64,000 bases of DNA from the human T2T-CHM13v2.0 reference genome, Homo sapiens: assembly GCF_009914755.1 (NCBI RefSeq), contig NC_060925.1; one strand, 5' to 3'. The position numbers and the translations under genes are program-made. A model generated the notes under the pieces. The model was given only the letters and a program-made list of their open reading frames with translations. It did no database searches and was not told the DNA's origin. Of this stretch, positions 1,585 to 45,753 are shown one piece after another. How positions within the stretch are numbered: position 1 is the stretch's first letter; every line of letters begins with the position of its first letter.

Positions 1585-2945
1585 CTAGATAGATGTATAC
1601 CCTGTCACCCAGCAATGTCACTCTTTGTATATTTGCAACTGAAATCAATGCTTACATCTATGGCATCTTCATTCATAATAGTCCCAAACTGGAAATAGTC
1701 CAAATGTTCATCAAGAGTGGGTGGTAAGTAAATTGCAGTATTTTTTACAGTGGAATGGAATGGAAAAAGAACATATTACTGCTACATTCAACAACTTGGC
1801 TGAATCTCATATAGAAAATGTTATGTCACAATAGCGAAATGCAAGAGTACATACAGCATATTTCTGTTTATATGAAGTTCAAAAACAGGCAAAATTAACC
1901 TATGTGGCATAGAAGTCAGAATAGCAATTATCTTTTGGGGGGATTTACTGGAAGGGAATGCAAAGGAAACTTCTAGAATGCTGGAAATATTCTTTGGTGA
2001 AAGGTTGTCCCTTAGGGTGCTAACTCCCTGCATCTCTGGTTTCTGTTATTTGGCCCATTTGGGCTGCCTCTGACAAAGCCAGATCCCAGTACCATGGTGC
2101 AGTGATTTATCTGAGCCAAAAGCCTCCACACATCCATTCAATCCAGACTTGGGAACGGGAGAGAATGGAGGAGCTGCCCCCACAATCTGCACAGTGAAGG
2201 CCATGCTAAACTAGGCCCTCTTCCTGGGGAAAGCTAAGAAGAAACACTGGTATTAGGAGATGTGTGAATTTTAGCAGCAGCCAGGACTCTCCACTGAGCA
2301 AGCAGCCAAGACCCAGCTTGCAGGGAATGCCAAGCAAATTTGGAGAGCACTTAAACTGAGTCTGTCACACCAGATGACCTCTGTCATAGGGAAATGCAGC
2401 AGCTGCAGCCAACAAGGGCAGGACAACTAAAGACCCCACTCAGGGATGAAGGGTGGGATTACCCCAACAAGAGAACAAACAATACAGATCAACCAAAATG
2501 CTGAGTAAAAGTGAGGGAAATAGGTGATAAAGGAGGGAGATTATAAAAGCCTTGAGACCAGCTGTAACAGCAGGCATTGCAATTTATTTCAATAACCTTC
2601 TTGCCTTATGCACTTGAGCAGATTGCAATTGACCACCACTTTGAAGGAGATTCTGTAAATGATTAAACTTGTACCTTCTCTCAGGGGAAAAGTGAGACAG
2701 CTAGTGCTCACACACACAGAAACACAAATCCTACATTATAATATTGGAGCTTGATATGATGAAAGTACTAGAGTGAATCTGAGCAGCTCAGAGTGAACTG
2801 TATCAGACTCTTCTTATTGAACCTCCTCAGATTTGCTTGGTTCCATCTGTCTACCGGGCACTCAGTCATTTGCTCCACCTCAGTCACTATCCACTCCTTG
2901 CAGGTCCAAGCAGTTCCACTGCCTGAGGTCAAGCTGCCACCTCTT

Positions 2946-3356
2946 GTAACCCCTGGCTCCTCACATACCACAAGGCATGGGGGTCTCTCTTTCTAAGCGA
3001 CTGCCGAAAGGGCTGGATGACACAGCCAGGAAGTCTGGGGGGAGATGATCACCTGTAGAAGATGAGAAGGAGCCAAACGCTTTTCCTTCCTCTCTCCAAA
3101 GGGCTGCTCCAAGGCGTGGTTTCTTTGCACAGCCCCTTAGGAGACAACCCACACAGGAAGGCAAGGGCGCCTGTGGGCTGGCCTGCTGGGTGTCTCCATT
3201 GCAGGGCTTAGTAATGCTCCTCCTTTAGTTGCTTCCCAGCCTTCCCTGACTCATTTCCCCATTCCCTCATTCTCACTGCTCTGGGATTAAACTCTCAAAC
3301 TCTTAGCACATATGCCTGCCTTAGGCTCTGTTTTTTAGGGAACCCAGGCAAAGACA
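2946..3356 (+). mobile_element. Old ERVL-type LTR (LTR16/LTR33-like)
   Basis: Ends ...ggctctgttttttagggaacccaggcaaagaca, typical of LTR16/33 3' ends; left boundary uncertain. Confidence 0.4.
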
Positions 3357-3514
3357 CATACATTTGGGGTCTGAGATATCTTGGAATCTACATTTTTAAA
3401 TTTTGTATGAATAATAAATGTATATGTATTTTGATATAAAAGCATATTTTGGATCATCTGGACAACCACATTATAATTGAGCATTTCCACTCTATTTCAG
3501 TGTTTCCCTTTTAA

Positions 3515-4036
<522 letters not shown>

Positions 4037-4384
4037 TGAAATTAATGCTTATCACCATCTGAAGACCAAATGAATTTATGAACGAAGAGATATTTCAAGT
4101 ATTTCAATACAAGAAAATGGGGGGCCAATTTGAGGTTCCACCTGAGGTTTGGCAAATTGAAAGAATATACACAGCCACTGACAGCCCATAATTCATGTTC
4201 CTAGGGACATTTAGTTTCAGCAAAATAATTTAATGATGTTAATTGGAATTTTATTGACTGGTAGGAGCTATGCAATAGAGAAAGCAGAAATCTGATGAGG
4301 AACTTGGAGTATGCTTTGCAAAGTAAGATATACATTTTATCTTTACTCTCCATTATAAAATAGTCAATAATATCTACATCACTT

Positions 4385-36094: not shown

Positions 36095-36392
36095 AATAAA
36101 ATAAATCATTCATCCTTTTTTTTGATTATAAAATTTTCTAAAATGTATTTTAGACTTCCTGTAGGGGGCGATATACTAAATGTATATAGTACATTTATAC
36201 TAAATGTATTCCTGTAGGGGGCGATATACTAAATGTATTTTAGACTTCCTGTAGGGGGCGATAAAATAAAATGCTAAACAACTGGGTATACATGCATAAA
36301 AACTATCCATTCAAACCCAAAAATTTAATAATCATTGAGTCTTTTATTAATGAATTTGAATACTAGAAAGAAACAGGGCTTGCATCAATAAA
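36095..36392 (+). terminator. CLCA1: CLCA1 polyadenylation signals
   Basis: AATAAA at 36095, 36100, 36265 and 36387. Confidence 0.6.
36140..36263 (+). repeat. Triplicated TTCCTGTAGGGGGCGATA unit in the 3'UTR, with an internal inverted repeat
   Basis: CCTGTAGGGGGCGATA at 36158, 36211 and 36248; TAAATGTA/TACATTTA at 36177-36197. Confidence 0.9.
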
Positions 36393-38637
36393 TGGAAGTA
36401 TGTTTTTATTTGTTTTAAGGAGCTTTGCCAGTTAAAAACAACATGCAATTGCAGAAATCTAACAGAGTTGCTAAAAGTTGTTTGATTTCTTTTGGTGAAG
36501 AAAAGCCAATCTAAATTATTTAAATATAAAAGACATGACTTGTTTTATAGGAGTTTTGGACCAGCATCACTAGGAATATGTCTTATTTTCTCTAAATTTG
36601 AGCAATGATGGTGCATTTAAGGAAGAGATGGCATTGAAGAAAGAAAGAACAGCACAATGAAAATTCCCTAGGCACAGAAATGAACGTTATGTGCATGAAA
36701 TTACAAGAGTTAGTGATGCTTTAAGCCATGGCAGTGGGGATAAGGTGGGAAAGGTAGCTTCAGGCCAGGTGTGAAGGGAAAGTGATTGAGAAATAAACAT
36801 TTATTGTGTACTTTGTCCAAGGGCCCAACTAATGCCTTATGTGCATTAGTTTATTTAATGTAATTCAGTTCTTTCAACAAATGTTCACCAGCTGCTTATT
36901 ATTTTCCAGGCCAATGCTAGGTTCTAAGGATAGAAAGATGAGTAAGCATTGGCCTTTTTCCTGTATACTAAAAAGAGCATTTGAGGATTTATTTTTGAAA
37001 TCAGGAGGCAGATATGCTCAGAGATATGCTTGAGAAGGGAGTCTTTAAGAACCGCACGAAGGCCTTAATAAGTGTGAGAAAGACCAGCAGCATAACAAAT
37101 GAAAGGGGAAGGAGAAGAAGAGGAAAAAGGGTTGGAAGTGTAGGCCTAGCACTATGGCAGTCCTCGTGAAGGACTAGTCACAGATTCCAGTGCCTGCAGG
37201 TGTAGATAGTCCTGTGAAAATTGTTTCGAGTTCCCAGTTATTAGTACAATGAGTTCAAGATGTGGGTGGCTCTCTTTATGATTGAAAACAAAATATCTAG
37301 CATATCATTTCTGCGTAGACCCAAAATTTCTTTATTTGTAGACCTTTCTTATTTCAAAACCAGATTTGAGCCATCTTAGTGATACATGCAATAAACATAA
37401 AAATAAAGAAATAAAATATATAATAAAAACTAGAAGAAGTGCTCAGGTATAAACCTATAAAGAATACATGGGGGAAAAAAACTAGAGGGAAAACCACCAC
37501 ATCAAATGCATAATATAATGTTCTGTACAATTGCTACAGCCAAGTCACATATTTCACTTTGTGACAAGTAGGTAGGACAAATGAAGTGTATATAGTAACA
37601 AGATTAACAGAGTCTATAGTGAAAAGCAAGCCAGAAGCAGCTCAGGAGAAGCATGGCTTTTCCTAGTCGTGAGACCCACAAGAAGTTTTATCTGTGGATC
37701 CTCAGTTTATTAGGGCACTGTGATGTTAAGGGCCGCAGCCAAAGCAGCAACCGTATAGTAATCATAACAACAAGTTTAATATAGGGCTAATTACTTCCTT
37801 CACTGTAAGCCAAAGGAGTAACACCACAGCATTGTTCAGGAAAGGCAATTATACAGGGACCCAAAAAATGCGGGCCTAGCAATTAGCTCTTGAGCTTGCC
37901 CCAGAGGTAAAATTTGGAGTGAATGGATTGCATGTCCTTCAGGCTGTTTCCTAGGACCCGTATTTCTTACATATAAATTTGTTATAAAAACTGAACAGTA
38001 GAGAGTTCCAAGACTAGGAAGACCCTGATGTTCCCAAAGTCAGTACTGTTTATTGAGGGCACAACCAGTTGCTTTGCCAGCCAAATGGGCAGAGGGTTGT
38101 TGGGGGTGCATGGCAACAAATTCAAGCTTGTATACAAAGCATTTGAGGTCGGGGCATGGAAAAAGACGGAGGCACTGTGTGTATGTTATTTGTGCATGGA
38201 AATGTAACTCCTTGACCCTGAAAACAGGACAAGGAGTGGAGTGTGTCATGAGGAACGCTGAAAACAGCCTCCTGAGAATGTGGTTTGAATGCTTTTAGAA
38301 GGCCACAGGTGTGTCACGACCCGACCTCAAGAGGCCATCTAGTGGATGTTTGTAGTTTAACAAGCCCTTTCAATAAATACTTGGCGGATGGATTCTGGGG
38401 TGATACTCTCTCAGAAGAGTGGTCCGCCGCTCCGCTCAGCTGGAATTGTCTGAGAACTCATTCTGGGCGTTCACTGCAAGCTATAAACTCTACAAGTGGT
38501 GCGCCCGAAGTGATCGCCTTGAAGTTGCACGTGAAGGAGGAAAACTCCTTAATTTTTGGGGAATCCCAGTAAGGGACAGTCCTGATTGCCATTAGGAGGA
38601 CGGGACCCACGCGTAAAATACCAGGGGTTGGGTCATC

Positions 38638-39286
38638 ATGGGTCAGGAAATGACCAAAGAACAGAAAGTATTTTTTAAAACAGTGCAACAGCTACTTAAG
38701 GCTATCCAGTGCACTGTAGAGCCTGGAGCTCTACACAAGCTTATGCTTTTAATTCGGCAGGGATGCCCTTGGTTTCCTGATCAAGGAACCTTAGATTTAG
38801 AGTTATGGGAGCAGGTAGGTCGCTGCCTGAAAAGAGGATATGAGCAAATGTTACTATTTTGACCACCTGGGCGCGCTGGTACGCTCTGCGTTGTATCCTC
38901 TTTATCTGCCAGATTGCGGTGAGTCAGACGGCCCATTATCTCCACCTGAAAGGAATTCAGAAGATTTAAAGGGAGAGATTCCTCTCCCCTCTTCATTCCC
39001 TTCTATGGGGAATAAAGAAGAGATTTTTTCCAGTGAGGAAAAACAGGAACCAGAGCAGCAGGGGGGTGCTCCTCTCTCTACTTCATTCCCTTCCGTAGGA
39101 CATGAGCAGGATATTTTTTCTAGTGAGGATAAGGACGGACCAGAGCCTTTTCCTCCCCCTATAGAAAAGCCATTGCCCTCCTTTCTTCCACCCTTAAAGG
39201 GACCTGCATTTGTTGGCCCCGTTCAGCCAACAGCGCCTCCCATCCCCCTTAAGGAGATTGGAAACTGCCCAAGGGACGGTTCTTAG
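38638..39286 (+). pseudogene. gag 5' part (matrix plus proline-rich spacer), frameshifted
   Basis: MGQEMTKEQ...CPWFPDQGTLDLELWEQVG is a betaretroviral MA signature; PTAPP late domain. Confidence 0.9.
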
Positions 39287-40769
39287 ATAAGACCCCCGGT
39301 CAGCGAACATCTGTATGATCGGGTGTCCGCTTCTCCTTGACAAACTTCCCTGCTGGAGGGGTGCCTCCAAGAGGGAAGGAAAGTGGCTGAGTATGATTGT
39401 CTTCCTAATACGCAAGTTCTCATTTCCTACTTCCAGCATCAGCCTTTCTGGCCTTGTCGGTTTTCTGTTTCCCTGGAGTATAAGGGGAACTTACATGCTG
39501 CCTCCTGGGTTTTATCCTAGATAGCTCTGGCTTTCTTGCTGCCCGCAGAGGCCTGGGGCAGGAGAGTTGCTAAGATGCCATGGAGTGCCCATTTAGTCAC
39601 TTGCAGTCTGGGCAGGTTGCCCCTTTCTGGGTTTGTGGTGATGGAGGGGAGGTCAAGAGGCACAGACCGAGTCCCCGGGTGGCTGCAGGCAGCTCCAGCC
39701 GGGTCCTGAGGATCCTCCTCACCATGGTCACGTGCCTTAGTAACCGTGCCCGGGAAGTGGCCTGCTGCTTGCTGTGCTGCTGCTTTTCCTACTTCTGCCC
39801 TTCCCTGCCACCCCTCGCATGTCTCAGTTGACAAGCAATTCCTTGTCTTCCCTGGCCCCCTAGGGAAAGGGCTAAGAAACAGTCCATGTGCACGCCGACC
39901 TTACTAGCCTAAGGTGGGCAAAGTAGTGCGGAGGAGCCTAGAGTACGGAGCCCTGAGGGAGGAGCCCGCTAATAAGGGACGCTCTCCAGTAGCCATATGC
40001 TAAATGCTAACTAGGCTGAGGTGGATGAGCTCTGCCAGCTGCTGTCATCGTCAGAAGATAAGACGCAGCAGTAAGGAATGTTTGTTTCGCTTTTTTATAA
40101 AATGTTTAAAAACACTGGGGCTAAGAAACTTCAAAGCAGACACTGCGCTGCCTGTCTGCTCCTCCCCTGAGCCTCTCTGCTTGAGGGTGGTAAAAATAAT
40201 AAAAAGCGCAGTCTATTTTCAGTACCTTACCTAACAGGGTTGGCTTCAGGCGTAGGTGGCCTAAAAGATAAGCGGAGTGGTTTTCTCCCAGCCGGTTACC
40301 TTCTTCCCTCCAGCCTCTGCGCTTACACACGCACGTTACCACCCGGTCATTCTTTGGCCTCTTACTGCCACTTGTAGTCTTCCTTCCTTTCTTTCAGAGT
40401 AAGGGCAGCAACAAGTGGCAAGCTGTTAAAAACAGAAGCTGCCTAAGGAGCCCAGACCGAATAAAAGAAACTGGCCACAGCCCTACTTTCCCAAGCTCAC
40501 TTCTAAGACATTCCATCTAAAGGCTGATGCAGGAAAATGGCCAACACCAAAGGACATTTTAAAAAGTTTTTTGGGGTTTTTTCTTTTTTTTTTTTTTTAC
40601 ATACTTAAGCTAACTCAATGCAGGTTTATTATCCTGGCGACTTGCAGTCACATTCTAATGATTTTCAAGGGCCAAAATATAGTAATAATCATTTGAAATA
40701 TCCATCGCTTCCATGCCTTAGTTTAACAGGTAGGCTTTATCTTTTGCCATTTCTGTATTTTACATCTGT

Positions 40770-42030
40770 TATGTACCTGTCTCATAATCCCTCTAAACAT
40801 ACACAAAAGACAACAGATTTAATAGCTTCTCTTCTCATAAAGGGACGCCAACGTTGCGTCCAGCTGTCAGGATATGACCCTGCTACTCTTTCCTACCTTT
40901 AAGCAAGGAACAATTTCATACTCTCTTAGCTCGTGATCTTGATTGGCAAGTAGCAATGGCTGACTTTATTCGTAATATCAGCTTCAATTTACCAGCCTCT
41001 AAGCTCCTGAACTTTTTACAAACTATGCCTGTGAAGTTTGTATCTATTGTTGTCTCTGAGCCTTTACTTCATGCCATCACTCTCTTTACAGATGGTTCAG
41101 GAAAAACTGGAAAAGCAGCTATAGTGTGGCAAGATGCCATGCAAAACTGGCAGTACAGAATCCAGGAGCATTTTAAAAACTACACAACAGGCAGAGTTAG
41201 GTGCCTTGATATTGGCCTTACAAATTTTCCTCACCAAGACGTAAATATACTTAGTGATTCCACTTATGCGGTGTATAGTATTACTCATTTAGATCTTGCA
41301 CATGTGAAGGGCATTACTAATGAACCCCTACTAGCTTTGTCTCTTGCAGCGCAAGACTCCTCCTTGCCAGTCATCACCCTCTTTACATCACACATATTCG
41401 CTCTCATTCTGGGCTATCTGGTCCCTTGTCAGAAAGGAATGCTTGAGCTGATGCTCTGGTACGACCACAGATGTGGTTTGCAGATTCTCCTGCTTTTTTG
41501 CGAGCTCAAGCTGATCATGCTGTTTTTCATCAGAACGCCTGCAGTCTTAAACAACAGTTTCATTTGACACTTGCTTAAGCTCACATGATTATTAAAACTG
41601 TCCTGATTGCCAACAGCGTTCTCTTTCCCCTTTTTCCTTAGGGCTTAGTGCCAGCCTACGAGGTCTGGTGCCTAACACTATCTGGCAAACTGATGTTACT
41701 CAGTAACCATCCTTTGGAAGTTTTAAATTTCTCCACGTTACCATGGACACTTATACAGGCCTGACACATGCTACCCCCCAGACGGGAGAAAAAAACTAAA
41801 GATGCATTTGCTAATTTGTTTAACTCTATTATGACTCTAAGCTTTCCACACACTATAATAACTGATAATGGACCTTACTATCTTAGTGCTCAATTTGCAT
41901 ATGCATTGCAACTTTGGTACATACAACACAAAACTGGTATTCCTTCTAACTCAGCCAGTCAGGCCATTGTTAAATAAGCTCATCAAACTCTTAAAATATA
42001 TCTTAATAAACAAAAAAGGGGGAATATGGG
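40770..42030 (+). pseudogene. pol 3' part: RT connection, RNase H and integrase core, disrupted
   Basis: IASLLIKGRQRCVQLSGYDP; LFTDGSGKTG and VNILSDS (RNase H); IWQTDVT and ITDNGP (integrase). Confidence 0.9.
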
Positions 42031-42073
42031 GCTCTGTTCTCGAGACTAGGACCTGTCGGAGAATCAACCAATA

Positions 42074-43976
42074 ATGACAATGATGACTCAGAAGTCACCT
42101 AACATTACCTGGGGACAGCTAAAGGGATTGGATCAACAGGCATCTATCCTGCTTGCAGCCGTGGAAGCCCATGCAACTGCAGAGAATCGGTTTCTTATGT
42201 ATCTGTGGCAACTGGGGAAACTTCTGAGAAAGTAAGACAGACATGGATGTTGGGGTGGCTGGTAATTCTTATACTTTGCCAAGTGGGATCAGCTCAAGAA
42301 CATGTTTATTGGAGTCATGTTCTAAATCCCCGTGTTTTTAATGTTATTACATGGTGGGATGCTGACCCGCCTTTGTCATCTAATGACACTTCTTGGATAG
42401 GAGGTCGATGGATGCTCTTGTCTTACCCCTTAACTGAAAATTTGGGATGGATTAAACTTAATTACTCCTTGATTTTATTGTATAGCAATCCCCCTATTTG
42501 TTTTTCCACAATAGCACGTGATAAGTGTGTCATTCTCAATCTTCAGGAATATCTTTACCTCAGTCCAAAAGGGATACTAAGCTTGCAAACTTGACCTTTA
42601 TTTCTGCTGTTACCACTAATCTTACTGAGGTCTCTAATGAAGCTACACAAGGGCCTGATCTTCCTATATGCCGTCTGAGTAGAGACTGGCAATATAAGTT
42701 TGATGTCGTCCAGTGTTCGCTGTGCAGACAGCCTGCGCCCCATCAAGGGCCTCTGTTTGATAATGGGGTCCCCATGGTAATCTTATGTGTGCCAATCAGA
42801 CTACTGGATTTGGAGTCCTTCCAATAGTTTTGTCACCTGGTCAGAGTATGGGCTTTCAGGACCAATATTATAACTAACAGGGAAACAGGCTTTAAGCCCT
42901 GCTCATACCGAAATTTGGAGACTAGGACTTCCTTTTATTGAATGGGTTCTTTCACATGGTGAGTATATTACTAGTGGTGGCAACTATACCCTCTCTTTGC
43001 ATAATAATGTTACTGACACAGTCCTGATTTGTACTATGCACCCCTATATACTTTTGTTTGGGCAAGGTGTTCCTAACATAGAGCAGAATCAATCCTTTTA
43101 TAGTATTAAAGTCTCTTCCAGTAGTTAGTATGCTACATGATTGTCTCATCAAAACATTACACAGTTGAATATAACCTATGTCATGATTGTAAAATGGCGT
43201 GCAGAATTGTAGCTGCCCATAAATTTAACCAGGAGCTGGGAAGGAGATTCCACTCTGCAGCTATTTAGAAAAGCACTGTCTCATACTCAGAAAAAAAGAT
43301 TTCTGGCCACTTTAATTGCCTTTTTAGTCTCAGCTATTATTATATTAGCAACTGCCGCTACTGTGGCTGTTTCTCTGACACAATCTATTCACGCAGCCTC
43401 AGTGGTGAACCACACTGCATATAATGTAACCCATGAATTTCAAGAACAGGTAAATATTGATAAAACTATTCTGCCTCACCTGGAGGCTCTTAAAGCCACT
43501 GTTAAATAGCTAGGGAATCAGCAGCAGGCATTCATTACCTGTCAAAATTTACATTGTGATTGGCAATATAATTCTATCTGTGTCACACTTCTGCCATATA
43601 ATAGCTCCCAATATGCTTGGGAGAGAGTGAACACACATCTGCAAGGGGCTTATTGCGACCATTTGTCTTCTCAAGTTTCTACTCCTAAGTGTGAGTTGAA
43701 GAAACAACTTGAAGAAAGGTCACAGCAATCACAAACAAGTACCCTTCAGCAATTTCAAGAAGGCTTTCAATGGTTAAACCCAAACACTTGGTTGTCTGGG
43801 TTAAACATGCGCATCTGGGTGATGGCCGCTATAGTTATTCTTTCTTGTATCTGTTTGCTAGACATCTGCAGATGGCTCTGTGCTGCTACCCAGCGCGTCG
43901 ACAACCAGGGAAGAACGATAGAAGTTTACCTTGCATTGGATGACCAGCACGCTCTAAGAATTAAAGAAGGGGGAGA
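42074..43976 (+). pseudogene. env (leader, SU, TM), disrupted
   Basis: NITWGQLK leader; YWSHVLNP SU start; KKR|FLATLIAFLVSAII furin site and fusion peptide near 43290; HCDWQYNSICVT loop; hydrophobic anchor. Confidence 0.88.
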
Positions 43977-45753
43977 CGTCGGGGGTGCATGGCAACACAT
44001 TCAAGCTTGTGTACAAGGCATTTGAGGTAGGGGCATGGAAAAAGACGGAGGCACTGTGTGTATGTTATTTGTGCATGGAAATGTAACTCCTTGACCCTGA
44101 AAACAGGACAAGGAGTGGAGCGTGTCATAAGGAAGGCTGAAAACAGCCTCCTGAGAATGTGGTTTGAGTGCTTTTATAAGGCCATAAGTGCCTCACGACC
44201 CGACCTCAAGAGGCCATCTAGTGGATGTTTGTAGTTTAACAAGCCCTTTCAATAAATACTTGGCGGATGGATTCTGGGGTGACACTCTCTCTCAGAAGGG
44301 TGGTCCCCCGCTCCGCTCAGCTAGAATCGTCTGAGAACTCATTCTTGGCGTTCACTGCAAGCTATAAGCTCTGCAAGGGTCAGTTTGGAGTCCTTTTCTA
44401 AATGTTACAAAACCAAACCAAGCACTTAGCTGATGAGAAGGCCACTTTGTGACAAATGAGACTGAGGTCCCAACTTCGTAGAACATGGTTACCATGGATT
44501 TCGCCTGGAAATTTTTCAATAAGTCACTCACTGAGATTTTAATTTCCCATTTGGGTGAACTCAGTAAAATGTAGCATGGGATATGGTAGTAAACCAGAGA
44601 TGCATACCATGTGACTTTGGAGAAGAAGAGGTAAATGTTAACATATAGATAAGATAGAAAGTAGAGAACAACAAAGAAAAAACATTCTTATGTACTCTGG
44701 GTTATAGGAAAGTTTATTGCGAAATGGATCTGTATTGTCATAGGTGATAAAATAAGCCAAATTTTTGCCTTATGCCATCATTGACCCACAATGGCCTTAG
44801 CCTCTGATAAGTCAATTAAGTGAGTGAGTAAATCTGGTAAATCTGTTCCAGATGTTGGTACTTCTCTTAATATCCAAGTATCCAGCATCAAAAGAGCGTA
44901 GGGAGAAATATTCTCCAAGCTCCCCTTTGCAACTTCCAAGCTAGGCTGTTACCCCTATGATCTAATGTGGTTTGTTTAAAGCTTCCATCCTATGTCATTG
45001 ATCTATGCTGTTTTTTAATCCCTTCTCTTCACTGTTATCTACCACACTCACCCAAGTTAGGCACAACACTCTTCCCCCCTCACCTCTTAAAATCACTCTG
45101 AGTGGTCTCAGAATCTATATGAATGAGTCAGTTCATATCTCAGCCTCAAAATTCCTTGATCGTCACCCCACCTCCACTAAAATTGAACAAACTATTGGTT
45201 TGAATAATAAAAGTGTATTTTTATAAGTAAAAAATTCGAATATTGGCAATTGCATATGGTTTGAGCAAGTCTTGCTAAGGCCACATTTTGACCTAGTAAT
45301 GACCTGAAACAACCGCACCTGTGAAATCTTAAAATCCAGTATCCTATTCTGGACACAACCTCCTAACCCTCTGTGCTGTTCACTTCCTATCCCACTGAAC
45401 TGACGTTGTAATTTCATGATGACTCCCATCACTTGATTGTTTCTTTTTACCTGGTCCATTATCTTTTTCTTTATATGGACCCTATATGCCTTGGGATGTC
45501 ACTTCAAGTCCTCCTTTGACAATTCCTTCAACTTCCACCTCTTAAGACACCTGCCCTGAAATCCTTTAGCTTTGCATTAAGCATGTTGTCTGTGTGCTTG
45601 AGACATTCATTTATCTATTCAGCAAATACTTTTAAAGTACCCACATTGTATCCCAAGTCCCATGTTAGACACTAAGATTACAATGGGTAATGAGCTACAT
45701 GGTTTCTGCCAACTAAAGTACTATCAAGCGAACAGGCACTTAACAATGCGCAG

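What the first reader, a model, noticed from the sequence alone, without database searches (positions are those of the whole stretch)
39290..40770. About 1.5 kb of non-retroviral, 3'UTR-like sequence replaces CA-NC-protease-RT inside the provirus: candidate host-gene transduction
Seen: gag similarity stops shortly after PTAPP and pol resumes at the RT connection domain. In between I find no capsid MHR, CCHC knuckle, dUTPase, DTG protease or YxDD motif. The sequence grades from GC-rich to AT-rich, with AATAAA at 40198 and 40460 and a T tract near 40580-40598, and has no obvious TSD. The LTRs, PBS, leader and PPT are all retained. Known: acutely transforming retroviruses, and the FAM8A1-carrying HERV-K elements, arose by recombination with co-packaged cellular mRNA that replaced viral genes. 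Inference: a non-autonomous ERV carrying a captured cellular mRNA segment, possibly amplified in trans as a family. I could not identify the donor gene, and boundaries are uncertain by about 50 bp.
Basis: partly seen in the sequence, partly recalled or inferred. Interest (0 to 1): 0.85.

Follow-up and report, generated by a model that had tools for sequence, protein, structure and literature searches.

The report
ERV-Hako provirus carrying SUSD6 3'UTR
An old defective endogenous retrovirus just downstream of CLCA1 has had its capsid-to-reverse-transcriptase genes replaced by a piece of the 3' untranslated region of the host gene SUSD6, a case of host-gene capture that was already described in print in 2025.

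Summary
The provirus runs from 38098 to 44375: 397/399-bp LTRs, a 5-bp AGGGT target-site duplication, a tRNA-Trp primer-binding site and a PPT. It keeps gag MA to just past PTAPP and resumes in pol after the RT thumb.

The donor is the 3'UTR of SUSD6 on chr14, captured in sense orientation. The match starts 2.6 kb past the stop codon and comes in two parts, with 844 bp deleted between 8-nt direct repeats.

A full-length relative on chr19 carries CA, NC, dUTPase, protease and RT in the 2751 bp that the block replaces.

The same gag|SUSD6 junction occurs in proviruses on chrX (an inverted duplicate pair), chr3 and chr2. chrX and chr3 also share the SUSD6|pol junction and the internal deletion. 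Flanks and TSDs differ at each site. This points to one capture, followed by spread in trans.

Frith 2025 (Mob DNA 16:11) names the family ERV-Hako and shows a chr1 relic with this SUSD6 insert. That relic is almost certainly this locus.

The parts
38093..38097 (+). Left copy of the 5-bp target-site duplication, AGGGT
   Evidence: Identical AGGGT at 38093-38097 and 44376-44380.
38098..38494 (+). 5' LTR (397 bp, TG...CA)
   Evidence: Direct repeat with 43977-44375. 23 differences in 397 aligned bases, K2P 0.061. 42 LTR matches in the genome.
38497..38514 (+). Primer-binding site, tRNA-Trp type (decayed)
   Evidence: 15 of 18 bases match the PBS form kept in the chrX and chr11 copies. A 15-mer from that form lies at the 3' end of 5 ARAGORN-called tRNA-Trp(CCA) genes.
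38638..39376 (+). Retained 5' part of gag: MA (Gag_p10) and the following proline-rich region with PTAPP (39227-39241); frame broken by stops
   Evidence: Pfam Gag_p10, E 2.9e-15. Homology to full-length relatives ends at 39376.
39377..40408 (+). SUSD6 3'UTR part A (= chr14 locus L012 4418-5448), sense orientation; includes the AATAAA at 40198, inherited from SUSD6
   Evidence: 89% identity to chr14. The AATAAA aligns to the AATAAA at L012:5238.
40401..40408 (+). Site of an 844-bp internal deletion relative to SUSD6; AAGGGCAG is the single remaining copy of an 8-nt direct repeat (AAGGGCAG / AAGGGTAG in SUSD6)
   Evidence: The same deletion is in the chrX and chr3 copies. The boundaries are not GT-AG on either strand.
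40409..40774 (+). SUSD6 3'UTR part B (= L012 6292 to about 6700); includes the T tract, inherited from a T/G-rich tract in SUSD6
   Evidence: 78-79% identity with indels. The junction alignment is and the T-tract alignment.
40775..41570 (+). pol resumes after the RT thumb: connection region and RNase H (TDGS motif at about 41090)
   Evidence: Homology to the chr19, chr8, chr12 and chr1 relatives starts at 40774. Pfam RNase_H, E 6.2e-5, below cut-off. In the chr19 copy the RVT_thumb hit ends about 50 codons upstream of the junction.
41765..41974 (+). Integrase core fragment
   Evidence: Pfam rve, E 4.1e-4, below cut-off.
42050..43950 (+). env remnant (SU plus TM), broken by stops
   Evidence: Pfam GP41, E 2.2e-14 and 1.6e-4, on ORFs 43510-44022 and 43213-43506. 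Colinear with relatives.
43963..43976 (+). Polypurine tract AAAGAAGGGGGAGA
   Evidence: Read directly in front of the 3' LTR.
43977..44375 (+). 3' LTR (399 bp)
44376..44380 (+). Right copy of the target-site duplication, AGGGT

Best explanation
This is a replication-defective relic of ERV-Hako, a small betaretrovirus-like (group II) family primed by tRNA-Trp.

Before this copy integrated, a viral ancestor lost 2.75 kb encoding capsid, nucleocapsid, dUTPase, protease and most of reverse transcriptase. In its place it gained 1.4 kb copied, in sense orientation, from the last exon (3'UTR) of the host gene SUSD6.

The most likely route (inferred, about 55%) is copy-choice by reverse transcriptase between viral RNA and a co-packaged SUSD6 mRNA:
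- one switch into the UTR and one back, each at a short imperfect microhomology;
- a third jump inside the UTR between two 8-nt direct repeats, which dropped 844 nt.

The chimera kept everything needed in cis: LTRs, PBS, leader and 5' gag, and PPT. Proteins of full-length Hako helpers then copied it in trans. This gave at least four independent germ-line integrations in the human lineage (chr1 here, chrX, chr3, chr2) and probably a fifth relic on chr6.

The captured piece has no ORF and no recognisable RNA family, so it reads as a passenger rather than an oncogene-like payload.
For: **Host origin and orientation**
- In one search the 1481-bp query gave 14 matches. Apart from itself, the long ones are chrX (two), chr3, chr14 (two pieces), chr6 and chr2 (two pieces). 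Two more (chr8, chr11) cover only the gag part of the query, and three are matches of 35-42 nt.
- Only chr14 lacks LTR, gag and pol around it within 10 kb.
- The chr14 site lies 2.6 kb 3' of the SUSD6 stop codon on the same strand.

**Replacement of viral genes**
- The chr19 and chr8:79 Mb relatives hold 2751 and 2764 bp between the same two break points. In the chr19 copy that interval carries Gag_p24, Gag_p24_C, zf-CCHC, dUTPase, RVP, RVT_1 and RVT_thumb.

**Single capture, then spread**
- The gag|SUSD6 junction is identical in chr1, chrX, chr3 and chr2.
- The SUSD6|pol junction and the 844-bp deletion are identical in chr1, chrX and chr3.
- TSDs and flanks differ: AGGGT, (G/A)TGGG, CCAA(C/T) and CAAAA.
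- The two chrX copies are 99.94% identical over 9.87 kb including flanks, so they count as one event.
- ERV-borne copies differ from each other by K2P 0.065-0.088 but from SUSD6 by 0.10-0.13. At 86 of 1347 sites all three full copies agree against SUSD6.
- The chr6 fragment shares 33 of 34 such sites.

**Template switching**
- The junctions show A/G-rich GAGGGA vs GAGAGA at 5' and ACCTGTCTCA vs TCCCGTTTCA (7/10) at 3'.
- The deletion sits between AAGGGCAG and AAGGGTAG.

**Family identity**
- Frith 2025 (PMC11905727) gives an LTR of 401 bp, TSD of 5-6 bp and a Trp primer, and reports the SUSD6 insert on chr1, chr3 and chrX.
Against: - **Direction of transfer is not proven by an outgroup.** I could not look at SUSD6 in species that predate Hako. 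Direction rests on the absence of viral flanks at chr14, the extra 844 bp there, and the paper.
- **The microhomologies are short and imperfect.** They do not separate RT copy-choice from a DNA-level deletion or read-through fusion.
- **No intron test is possible.** All captured sequence comes from one exon, so loss of introns, the classic sign of an mRNA intermediate, cannot be checked.
- **The 3'UTR's end is uncertain from my data.** Between the stop codon and 0.9 kb beyond the captured part I found only two canonical poly(A) hexamers, at L012:2754 and 5238. That part B lies inside the annotated 3'UTR therefore rests on the paper's statement, not on my data.
- **The LTR date is young.** LTR divergence (K2P 0.061) gives about 14-30 Myr at assumed rates of 1.0-2.2e-9 per site per year. 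That is at or below the age the paper infers from presence across catarrhines.
Confidence: 0.93

Rival explanations
1. Same end product, but by the classical route for transducing retroviruses. A Hako provirus integrated upstream of or inside the last exon of SUSD6 in the same orientation. A DNA deletion or read-through transcript fused 5' gag to the UTR. Only the 3' junction was then made by reverse-transcriptase recombination with a co-packaged helper genome.
For: The insert is in sense orientation and the structure is 5' virus - host - 3' virus, which this route predicts equally well. The 5' junction is not at a splice site on either side, so it would have to be a deletion. Deletions also use microhomology.
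Against: No Hako LTR or other Hako sequence was found within the 28 kb fetched around the SUSD6 last exon. L012 gave only insert matches, and L025 and L026 gave no match to the provirus. A somatic or lost germ-line provirus would leave no trace, so this is weak evidence. The extra 844-nt jump between direct repeats shows RT-type template jumping did act on this sequence.
Confidence: 0.35
2. The block entered after integration at this locus. A processed SUSD6 retrocopy landed in an intact provirus, and an independent deletion removed CA to RT.
For: None found. The lack of a TSD and of a poly(A) tail around the block already argues against it.
Against: The gag|SUSD6 junction recurs at three other sites with unrelated flanks and TSDs. 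Two of them, chrX and chr3, also share the SUSD6|pol junction and the internal deletion.
Confidence: 0.01
3. The transfer ran the other way. The chr14 sequence is a stray fragment of the Hako variant that landed in the SUSD6 3'UTR, and the block is an unrecognised viral accessory region.
For: The chr14 match ends where the block ends. A fragment would show this too.
Against: - The full-length relatives on chr19, chr8 and chr12 have CA to RT in this position and no trace of the block.
- chr14 carries 844 extra bases flanked by the repeat that explains the deletion.
- There is no LTR, gag or pol at chr14.
- SUSD6 is the outlier to a tight cluster of ERV-borne copies.
- Frith 2025 calls it SUSD6 3'UTR.
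Confidence: 0.02

Closest known systems
ERV-Hako, SUSD6-carrying subtype (Frith 2025, Mob DNA 16:11, PMC11905727; Dfam DF003576559 LTR and DF003576584 interior as listed in its Table 1)
   Same: - Group II ERV with an LTR of about 400 bp, a 5-6 bp TSD and a tRNA-Trp PBS.
- An interior segment matching parts of the SUSD6 3'UTR, with copies on chr1, chr3 and chrX.
- The paper's Fig. [quoted passage not shown] My genome search found only one chr1 locus with the insert, which is this one.
   Different: Nothing of substance differs.

Added here, and not stated in the parts of the paper I read:
- base-level junctions and their microhomologies;
- the 8-nt repeat flanking the 844-bp internal deletion;
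- the chr2 relic, which keeps only the first 200 bp or so of the insert;
- the chr6 fragment;
- the per-copy TSDs.

ERV-Hako, SPHKAP-carrying copy on chr1 (same paper)
   Same: Same family, and again part of a host 3'UTR sits inside the interior. I found an 855-bp foreign block in the chr1:160.04 Mb copy whose only non-self match is chr2:228.463 Mb, at 87%.
   Different: It has a different donor gene, different break points (pol resumes at about window-equivalent 41473) and a single copy. I did not verify the gene's name myself.
HERV-K14C (HML-9) proviruses carrying part of FAM8A1 (Jamain et al. 2001, recalled; Flockerzi et al. 2005, title seen only in a reference list, text not held)
   Same: A class II human ERV that picked up host gene sequence and then multiplied.
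   Different: A different ERV family, a different donor gene and, as I recall, a Y-chromosome-rich distribution. No copy of the present insert was found on the Y.
Acutely transforming retroviruses and other defective recombinants such as RecKoRV (as cited in the introduction of Frith 2025)
   Same: Host or foreign sequence replaces viral genes between intact cis elements, and the element depends on a helper virus.
   Different: The payload here is non-coding 3'UTR, with no fusion ORF and no sign of a growth advantage. It survives as germ-line relics tens of millions of years old.

Membership tests
ERV-Hako (Frith 2025) | LTR of about 401 bp, repeated some tens of times in the human genome | tested here: met
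   The LTRs are 397 and 399 bp. There are 42 matches in the genome (46 candidates, 40 scored, so a lower bound), against about 47 in the paper's Table 1. I could not align to the Dfam consensus itself.
ERV-Hako (Frith 2025) | Group II (betaretrovirus-like) gene content | tested here: met
   Gag_p10 in the window. dUTPase ahead of RVP, two zinc knuckles and Gag_p24 in the chr19 relative.
ERV-Hako (Frith 2025) | Primer-binding site complementary to tRNA-Trp | tested here: met
   The 15-mer from the PBS of the chrX and chr11 copies has 10 exact genome hits. Three are Hako PBSs. Of the other 7, 5 are the 3' ends of ARAGORN tRNA-Trp(CCA) genes and 2 have no tRNA. The window's own PBS keeps 15 of 18 positions.
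ERV-Hako (Frith 2025) | Target-site duplication of 5-6 bp | tested here: met
   AGGGT on both sides here. 5-bp TSDs at the chr2, chr3 and chrX copies, two of them with one mismatch.
ERV-Hako, SUSD6 subtype | Interior segment matching parts of the SUSD6 3'UTR | tested here: met
Transducing (host-sequence-carrying) retrovirus | Host sequence flanked on both sides by viral sequence inside one LTR pair, in sense orientation, present before integration | tested here: met
   The 5' junction is shared by four independently integrated sites, and the 3' junction by three of them. The insert is on the same strand as the SUSD6 coding sequence.
Transducing (host-sequence-carrying) retrovirus | Captured sequence lacks the donor's introns (mRNA intermediate) | not testable with these tools
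   Everything captured lies in one exon. The 844-bp gap is not GT-AG on either strand, so it is a deletion and not a splice.
Transducing (host-sequence-carrying) retrovirus | Expressed host coding sequence (oncogene-like payload) | tested here: not met
   The capture starts 2.6 kb after the SUSD6 stop codon. 0 of 12 ORFs in or across the block match Pfam.
Non-autonomous ERV mobilised in trans | Lacks CA, NC, PR and RT yet has several independent integrations, with full-length relatives present in the same genome | tested here: met
   The helper relationship itself is inferred.

The most novel reading that the evidence does not exclude
The SUSD6 3'UTR piece may not have been a passive passenger. 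It may have given the defective genome a cis-acting edge in RNA stability, export or packaging.

This would help explain three things:
- the chimera makes up at least 4 of the roughly 16 human Hako interiors;
- it is the form that reached platyrrhines;
- the family captured a second 3'UTR (SPHKAP).

A linked oddity is that an unrelated Hako deletion variant at chr1:159.86 Mb breaks pol within about 3 nt of the SUSD6|pol junction. That hints at a template-switch hot spot in pol.
Probability: 0.1. Interest if true: 0.5.

Novelty: already known. Interest (0 to 1): 0.15.

Why it matters
It is a clean human example of a retrovirus picking up host RNA and spreading it through the germ line. According to Frith 2025, the same chimera also moved host DNA between Old World and New World primate lineages.

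For annotation:
- the 1.4 kb here should be read as SUSD6-derived, not as an unknown repeat or a novel gene;
- similarity between this locus and the SUSD6 3'UTR is a capture relic, not a sign of shared function.

The finding adds only base-level detail to what is already in print.

Tried and rejected
- **HERV-K14 / FAM8A1 lead.** I first suspected this was one of the HERV-K14 family elements known to carry cellular sequence. Flockerzi 2005 could not be read. The donor turned out to be SUSD6 and the family ERV-Hako, so the lead was dropped.
- **Splicing as the cause of the 844-bp gap.** Rejected: no placement of the boundaries gives GT-AG, or CT-AC for the other strand.
- **Known RNA element in the block.** The Rfam scan of 38000-44400 at E<=1 gave only two chance-level hits: OxyS (E 0.21) and mir-74 (E 0.35), both far below gathering scores.
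- **chr6 fragment as a possible second parent locus.** Rejected: it shares 33 of 34 sites that set the ERV-borne copies apart from SUSD6. A Hako LTR plus leader also lies 10.6 kb upstream on the same strand.
- **The 770-800 bp between gag and pol in the chr8:29.59 and chr11:60.71 copies as another host capture.** Rejected: it is Hako gag/CA sequence, with a shared deletion of chr19-sense 2133-4215.
- **Supplements of Frith 2025.** Closed.
Full report
**What is there**

The window holds a 6.3-kb provirus about 1.8 kb past the last CLCA1 exon.
- The LTRs are 38098-38494 and 43977-44375. They show 23 differences in 397 aligned bases, K2P 0.061.
- The same five bases, AGGGT, flank them at 38093-38097 and 44376-44380.
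- A primer-binding site follows the 5' LTR at 38497-38514, and a polypurine tract (43963-43976) precedes the 3' LTR.
- The gag MA domain is recognisable (Pfam Gag_p10, E 2.9e-15), and PTAPP is encoded at 39227-39241.
- After the block come RNase H, an integrase core fragment and env TM (RNase_H E 6.2e-5, rve E 4.1e-4, GP41 E 2.2e-14). The first two are below Pfam's cut-off.

**The block and its borders**

I compared the provirus with full-length relatives found in the same genome (chr19:24.095-24.104 Mb and chr8:79.075-79.084 Mb).
- Homology runs up to 39376 and starts again at 40774. Base-level alignments put the junctions at 39376|39377 and 40774|40775, give or take two bases.
- The relatives hold 2751 bp (chr19) and 2764 bp (chr8) between these points.
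- In the chr19 copy, 8 of 12 minus-strand ORFs scanned across that interval match Gag_p24, Gag_p24_C, zf-CCHC, dUTPase, RVP, RVT_1 (two ORFs) and RVT_thumb. RVT_thumb and one RVT_1 hit are below cut-off.
- In the window, 0 of 12 ORFs in or across the block, on both strands, match any Pfam family at E<=0.01.
- The stated motifs and the GC gradient (0.60 falling to 0.33) are real.

**The donor**

A search of the window's own genome with 39290-40770 gave 14 matches: the locus itself, chrX twice, chr3, chr14 in two pieces, chr6, chr2 in two pieces, two matches to the gag part only (chr8, chr11), and three matches of 35-42 nt.
- Of the long matches, only chr14:63919411-63921685 has no LTR, gag or pol around it in 10 kb. 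The two neighbouring 9-kb stretches also gave no match to the provirus.
- On the same strand, 2.6 kb upstream of the match, an ORF ends that is the C-terminus of SUSD6. It is 85-93% identical to the listed mammalian proteins named sushi domain-containing protein 6, best E 2.5e-83.
- The block is therefore SUSD6 last-exon sequence downstream of the stop codon, copied in sense orientation.
- It comes in two parts: window 39377-40408 matches L012 4418-5448 at 89%, and 40409-40774 matches L012 6292 to about 6700 at 78-79% with indels.
- The 844 bp between them in SUSD6 are bounded by AAGGGCAG and AAGGGTAG, and the proviruses keep one copy of that repeat.
- No placement of the gap gives GT-AG on either strand, so it is a deletion between direct repeats and not a splice.
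- The AATAAA at 40198 and the T tract come from SUSD6. The AATAAA at 40460 arose in the viral lineage.

**One capture, then spread**
- The gag|SUSD6 junction is the same in the chr1, chrX, chr3 and chr2 copies.
- The SUSD6|pol junction and the 844-bp deletion are the same in chr1, chrX and chr3.
- The chr2 copy later lost everything from about 39493 to 41221, apart from an inverted 88-bp piece.
- The chr3 copy is split by a 9.2-kb insertion next to the 3' junction.
- Flanks and TSDs differ between sites: AGGGT; (G/A)TGGG; CCAA(C/T); CAAAA.
- The two chrX copies are 99.94% identical over 9.87 kb in inverted orientation, flanks included. They are one integration that was later duplicated.
- ERV-borne copies differ from each other by K2P 0.065-0.088 and from SUSD6 by 0.10-0.13. 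At 86 of 1347 sites the three full copies agree against SUSD6.
- A 661-bp fragment at chr6:33177602-33178262 shares 33 of 34 such sites. A Hako LTR and leader lie 10.6 kb upstream on the same strand, so it is a broken fifth relic and not a second parent.
- The four-taxon tree places SUSD6 opposite the three copies, but its one inner branch is unsupported. It adds nothing beyond the distances.

**Mechanism**

What is shown:
- host 3'UTR in sense orientation replaces CA to RT;
- the cis elements are kept;
- the structure was fixed before at least four integrations.

What is inferred: the junctions were made by reverse transcriptase switching templates between viral RNA and a co-packaged SUSD6 mRNA.
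- The switches occurred at short imperfect matches: GAGGGA vs GAGAGA at 5', and ACCTGTCTCA vs TCCCGTTTCA at 3'.
- The internal 844-nt jump between 8-nt repeats is the same kind of event.

The classical alternative is that a provirus in or upstream of SUSD6 formed the 5' junction by deletion or read-through, and only the 3' junction was made by recombination. It gives the same product, and I cannot exclude it.

Spread in trans by full-length Hako helpers is inferred from two facts: the chimera lacks CA, NC, PR and RT, and the same genome holds relatives that carry them.

**Comparison with what is known**

A full-text search for SUSD6 or KIAA0247 with ERV terms led to Frith 2025, Mob DNA 16:11 (PMC11905727). 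I read the abstract, sections 3, 6 and 13, Table 1 and the legends of Figs 1-3.
- The paper defines ERV-Hako as group II, with an LTR of 401 bp, TSD of 5-6 bp, a tRNA-Trp primer, about 47 LTR copies and 16 interiors.
- Its Fig. [quoted passage not shown]
- It adds that Hakos on chromosomes 3 and X have the same insert, that another chr1 Hako carries part of the SPHKAP 3'UTR, and that a platyrrhine form (HakoP) has the same SUSD6 insert.
The window's locus is the only chr1 site with the insert in my search, so it is almost certainly the Fig. 1 relic.

I tested the family's defining features here:
- LTR length and copy number;
- group II gene content;
- TSD length;
- the Trp primer. A 15-mer from the intact PBS of the chrX and chr11 copies has 10 exact genome hits. 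Three are Hako PBSs. Of the other seven, five are the 3' ends of tRNA-Trp(CCA) genes and two have no tRNA. The window's PBS keeps 15 of 18 positions.

**Age**

LTR divergence of 0.061 gives roughly 14-30 Myr under assumed rates of 1.0-2.2e-9 per site per year; the rates are my assumption and come from no call. The paper places the insertion in the catarrhine ancestor from genome alignments I could not repeat. The upper end of my range is compatible with that date and the lower end is not.

**Verdict**

The finding is already in print, so interest is low.

Noticed in passing
L024 (chr1:159857000-159862500), about locus 3725-3740, minus strand: Another Hako relic is a plain gag-to-pol deletion variant. 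Its pol break point lies within about 3 nt of the SUSD6|pol junction (gag at about window-equivalent 39179 joined to pol at about 40773). Its LTRs are only about 73% identical to the window's, so it is not a derivative of the SUSD6 subtype. This is a possible template-switch hot spot in pol, or a coincidence.
   Followed up: partly
L017 (chr8:29592400-29599400) and L018 (chr11:60707200-60714800): These two Hako proviruses share one internal deletion (chr19-sense 2133-4215) with the same end points. They represent a second defective form that integrated at least twice.
   Followed up: partly
L023 2691-3545 (chr1:160044190-160045044): An 855-bp foreign block in this Hako copy has a single non-self match, chr2:228463162-228464018, at 87%. 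This fits the SPHKAP 3'UTR capture reported by Frith 2025; I did not confirm the gene myself. A high-copy repeat of about 390 bp is also inserted in this copy.
   Followed up: partly
window 38031-38945, 39495-39852, 40231-40361, minus strand: All annotated exons of the predicted lncRNA LOC105378827 lie inside the provirus on the antisense strand, and two of them lie in the SUSD6-derived block. The splice sites are good: donors TTAG|GTAAGG and GCAT|GTAAGT, acceptors ...CCAG| and ...TTTCAG|. Such a transcript would be about 89% complementary to part of the SUSD6 3'UTR. No expression data were available.
   Followed up: partly
window 38473-38562 and 43817-44318: The two RefSeq 'enhancer' features in the hub's table fall on the 5' LTR end/PBS and on the env end/3' LTR of this provirus.
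   Followed up: no
L009/L010 (chrX:70.127-70.137 and 70.2115-70.2215 Mb): The chrX Hako-SUSD6 provirus sits in a large inverted duplication whose arms are 99.94% identical over the 9.87 kb compared. The insert itself is 0 of 1390 different between the arms.
   Followed up: partly
window 36120-36270: The end of the CLCA1 3'UTR holds short direct repeats: 'aaatgtattttagacttcctgtagggggcgata' twice and 'tactaaatgtat' several times.
   Followed up: no
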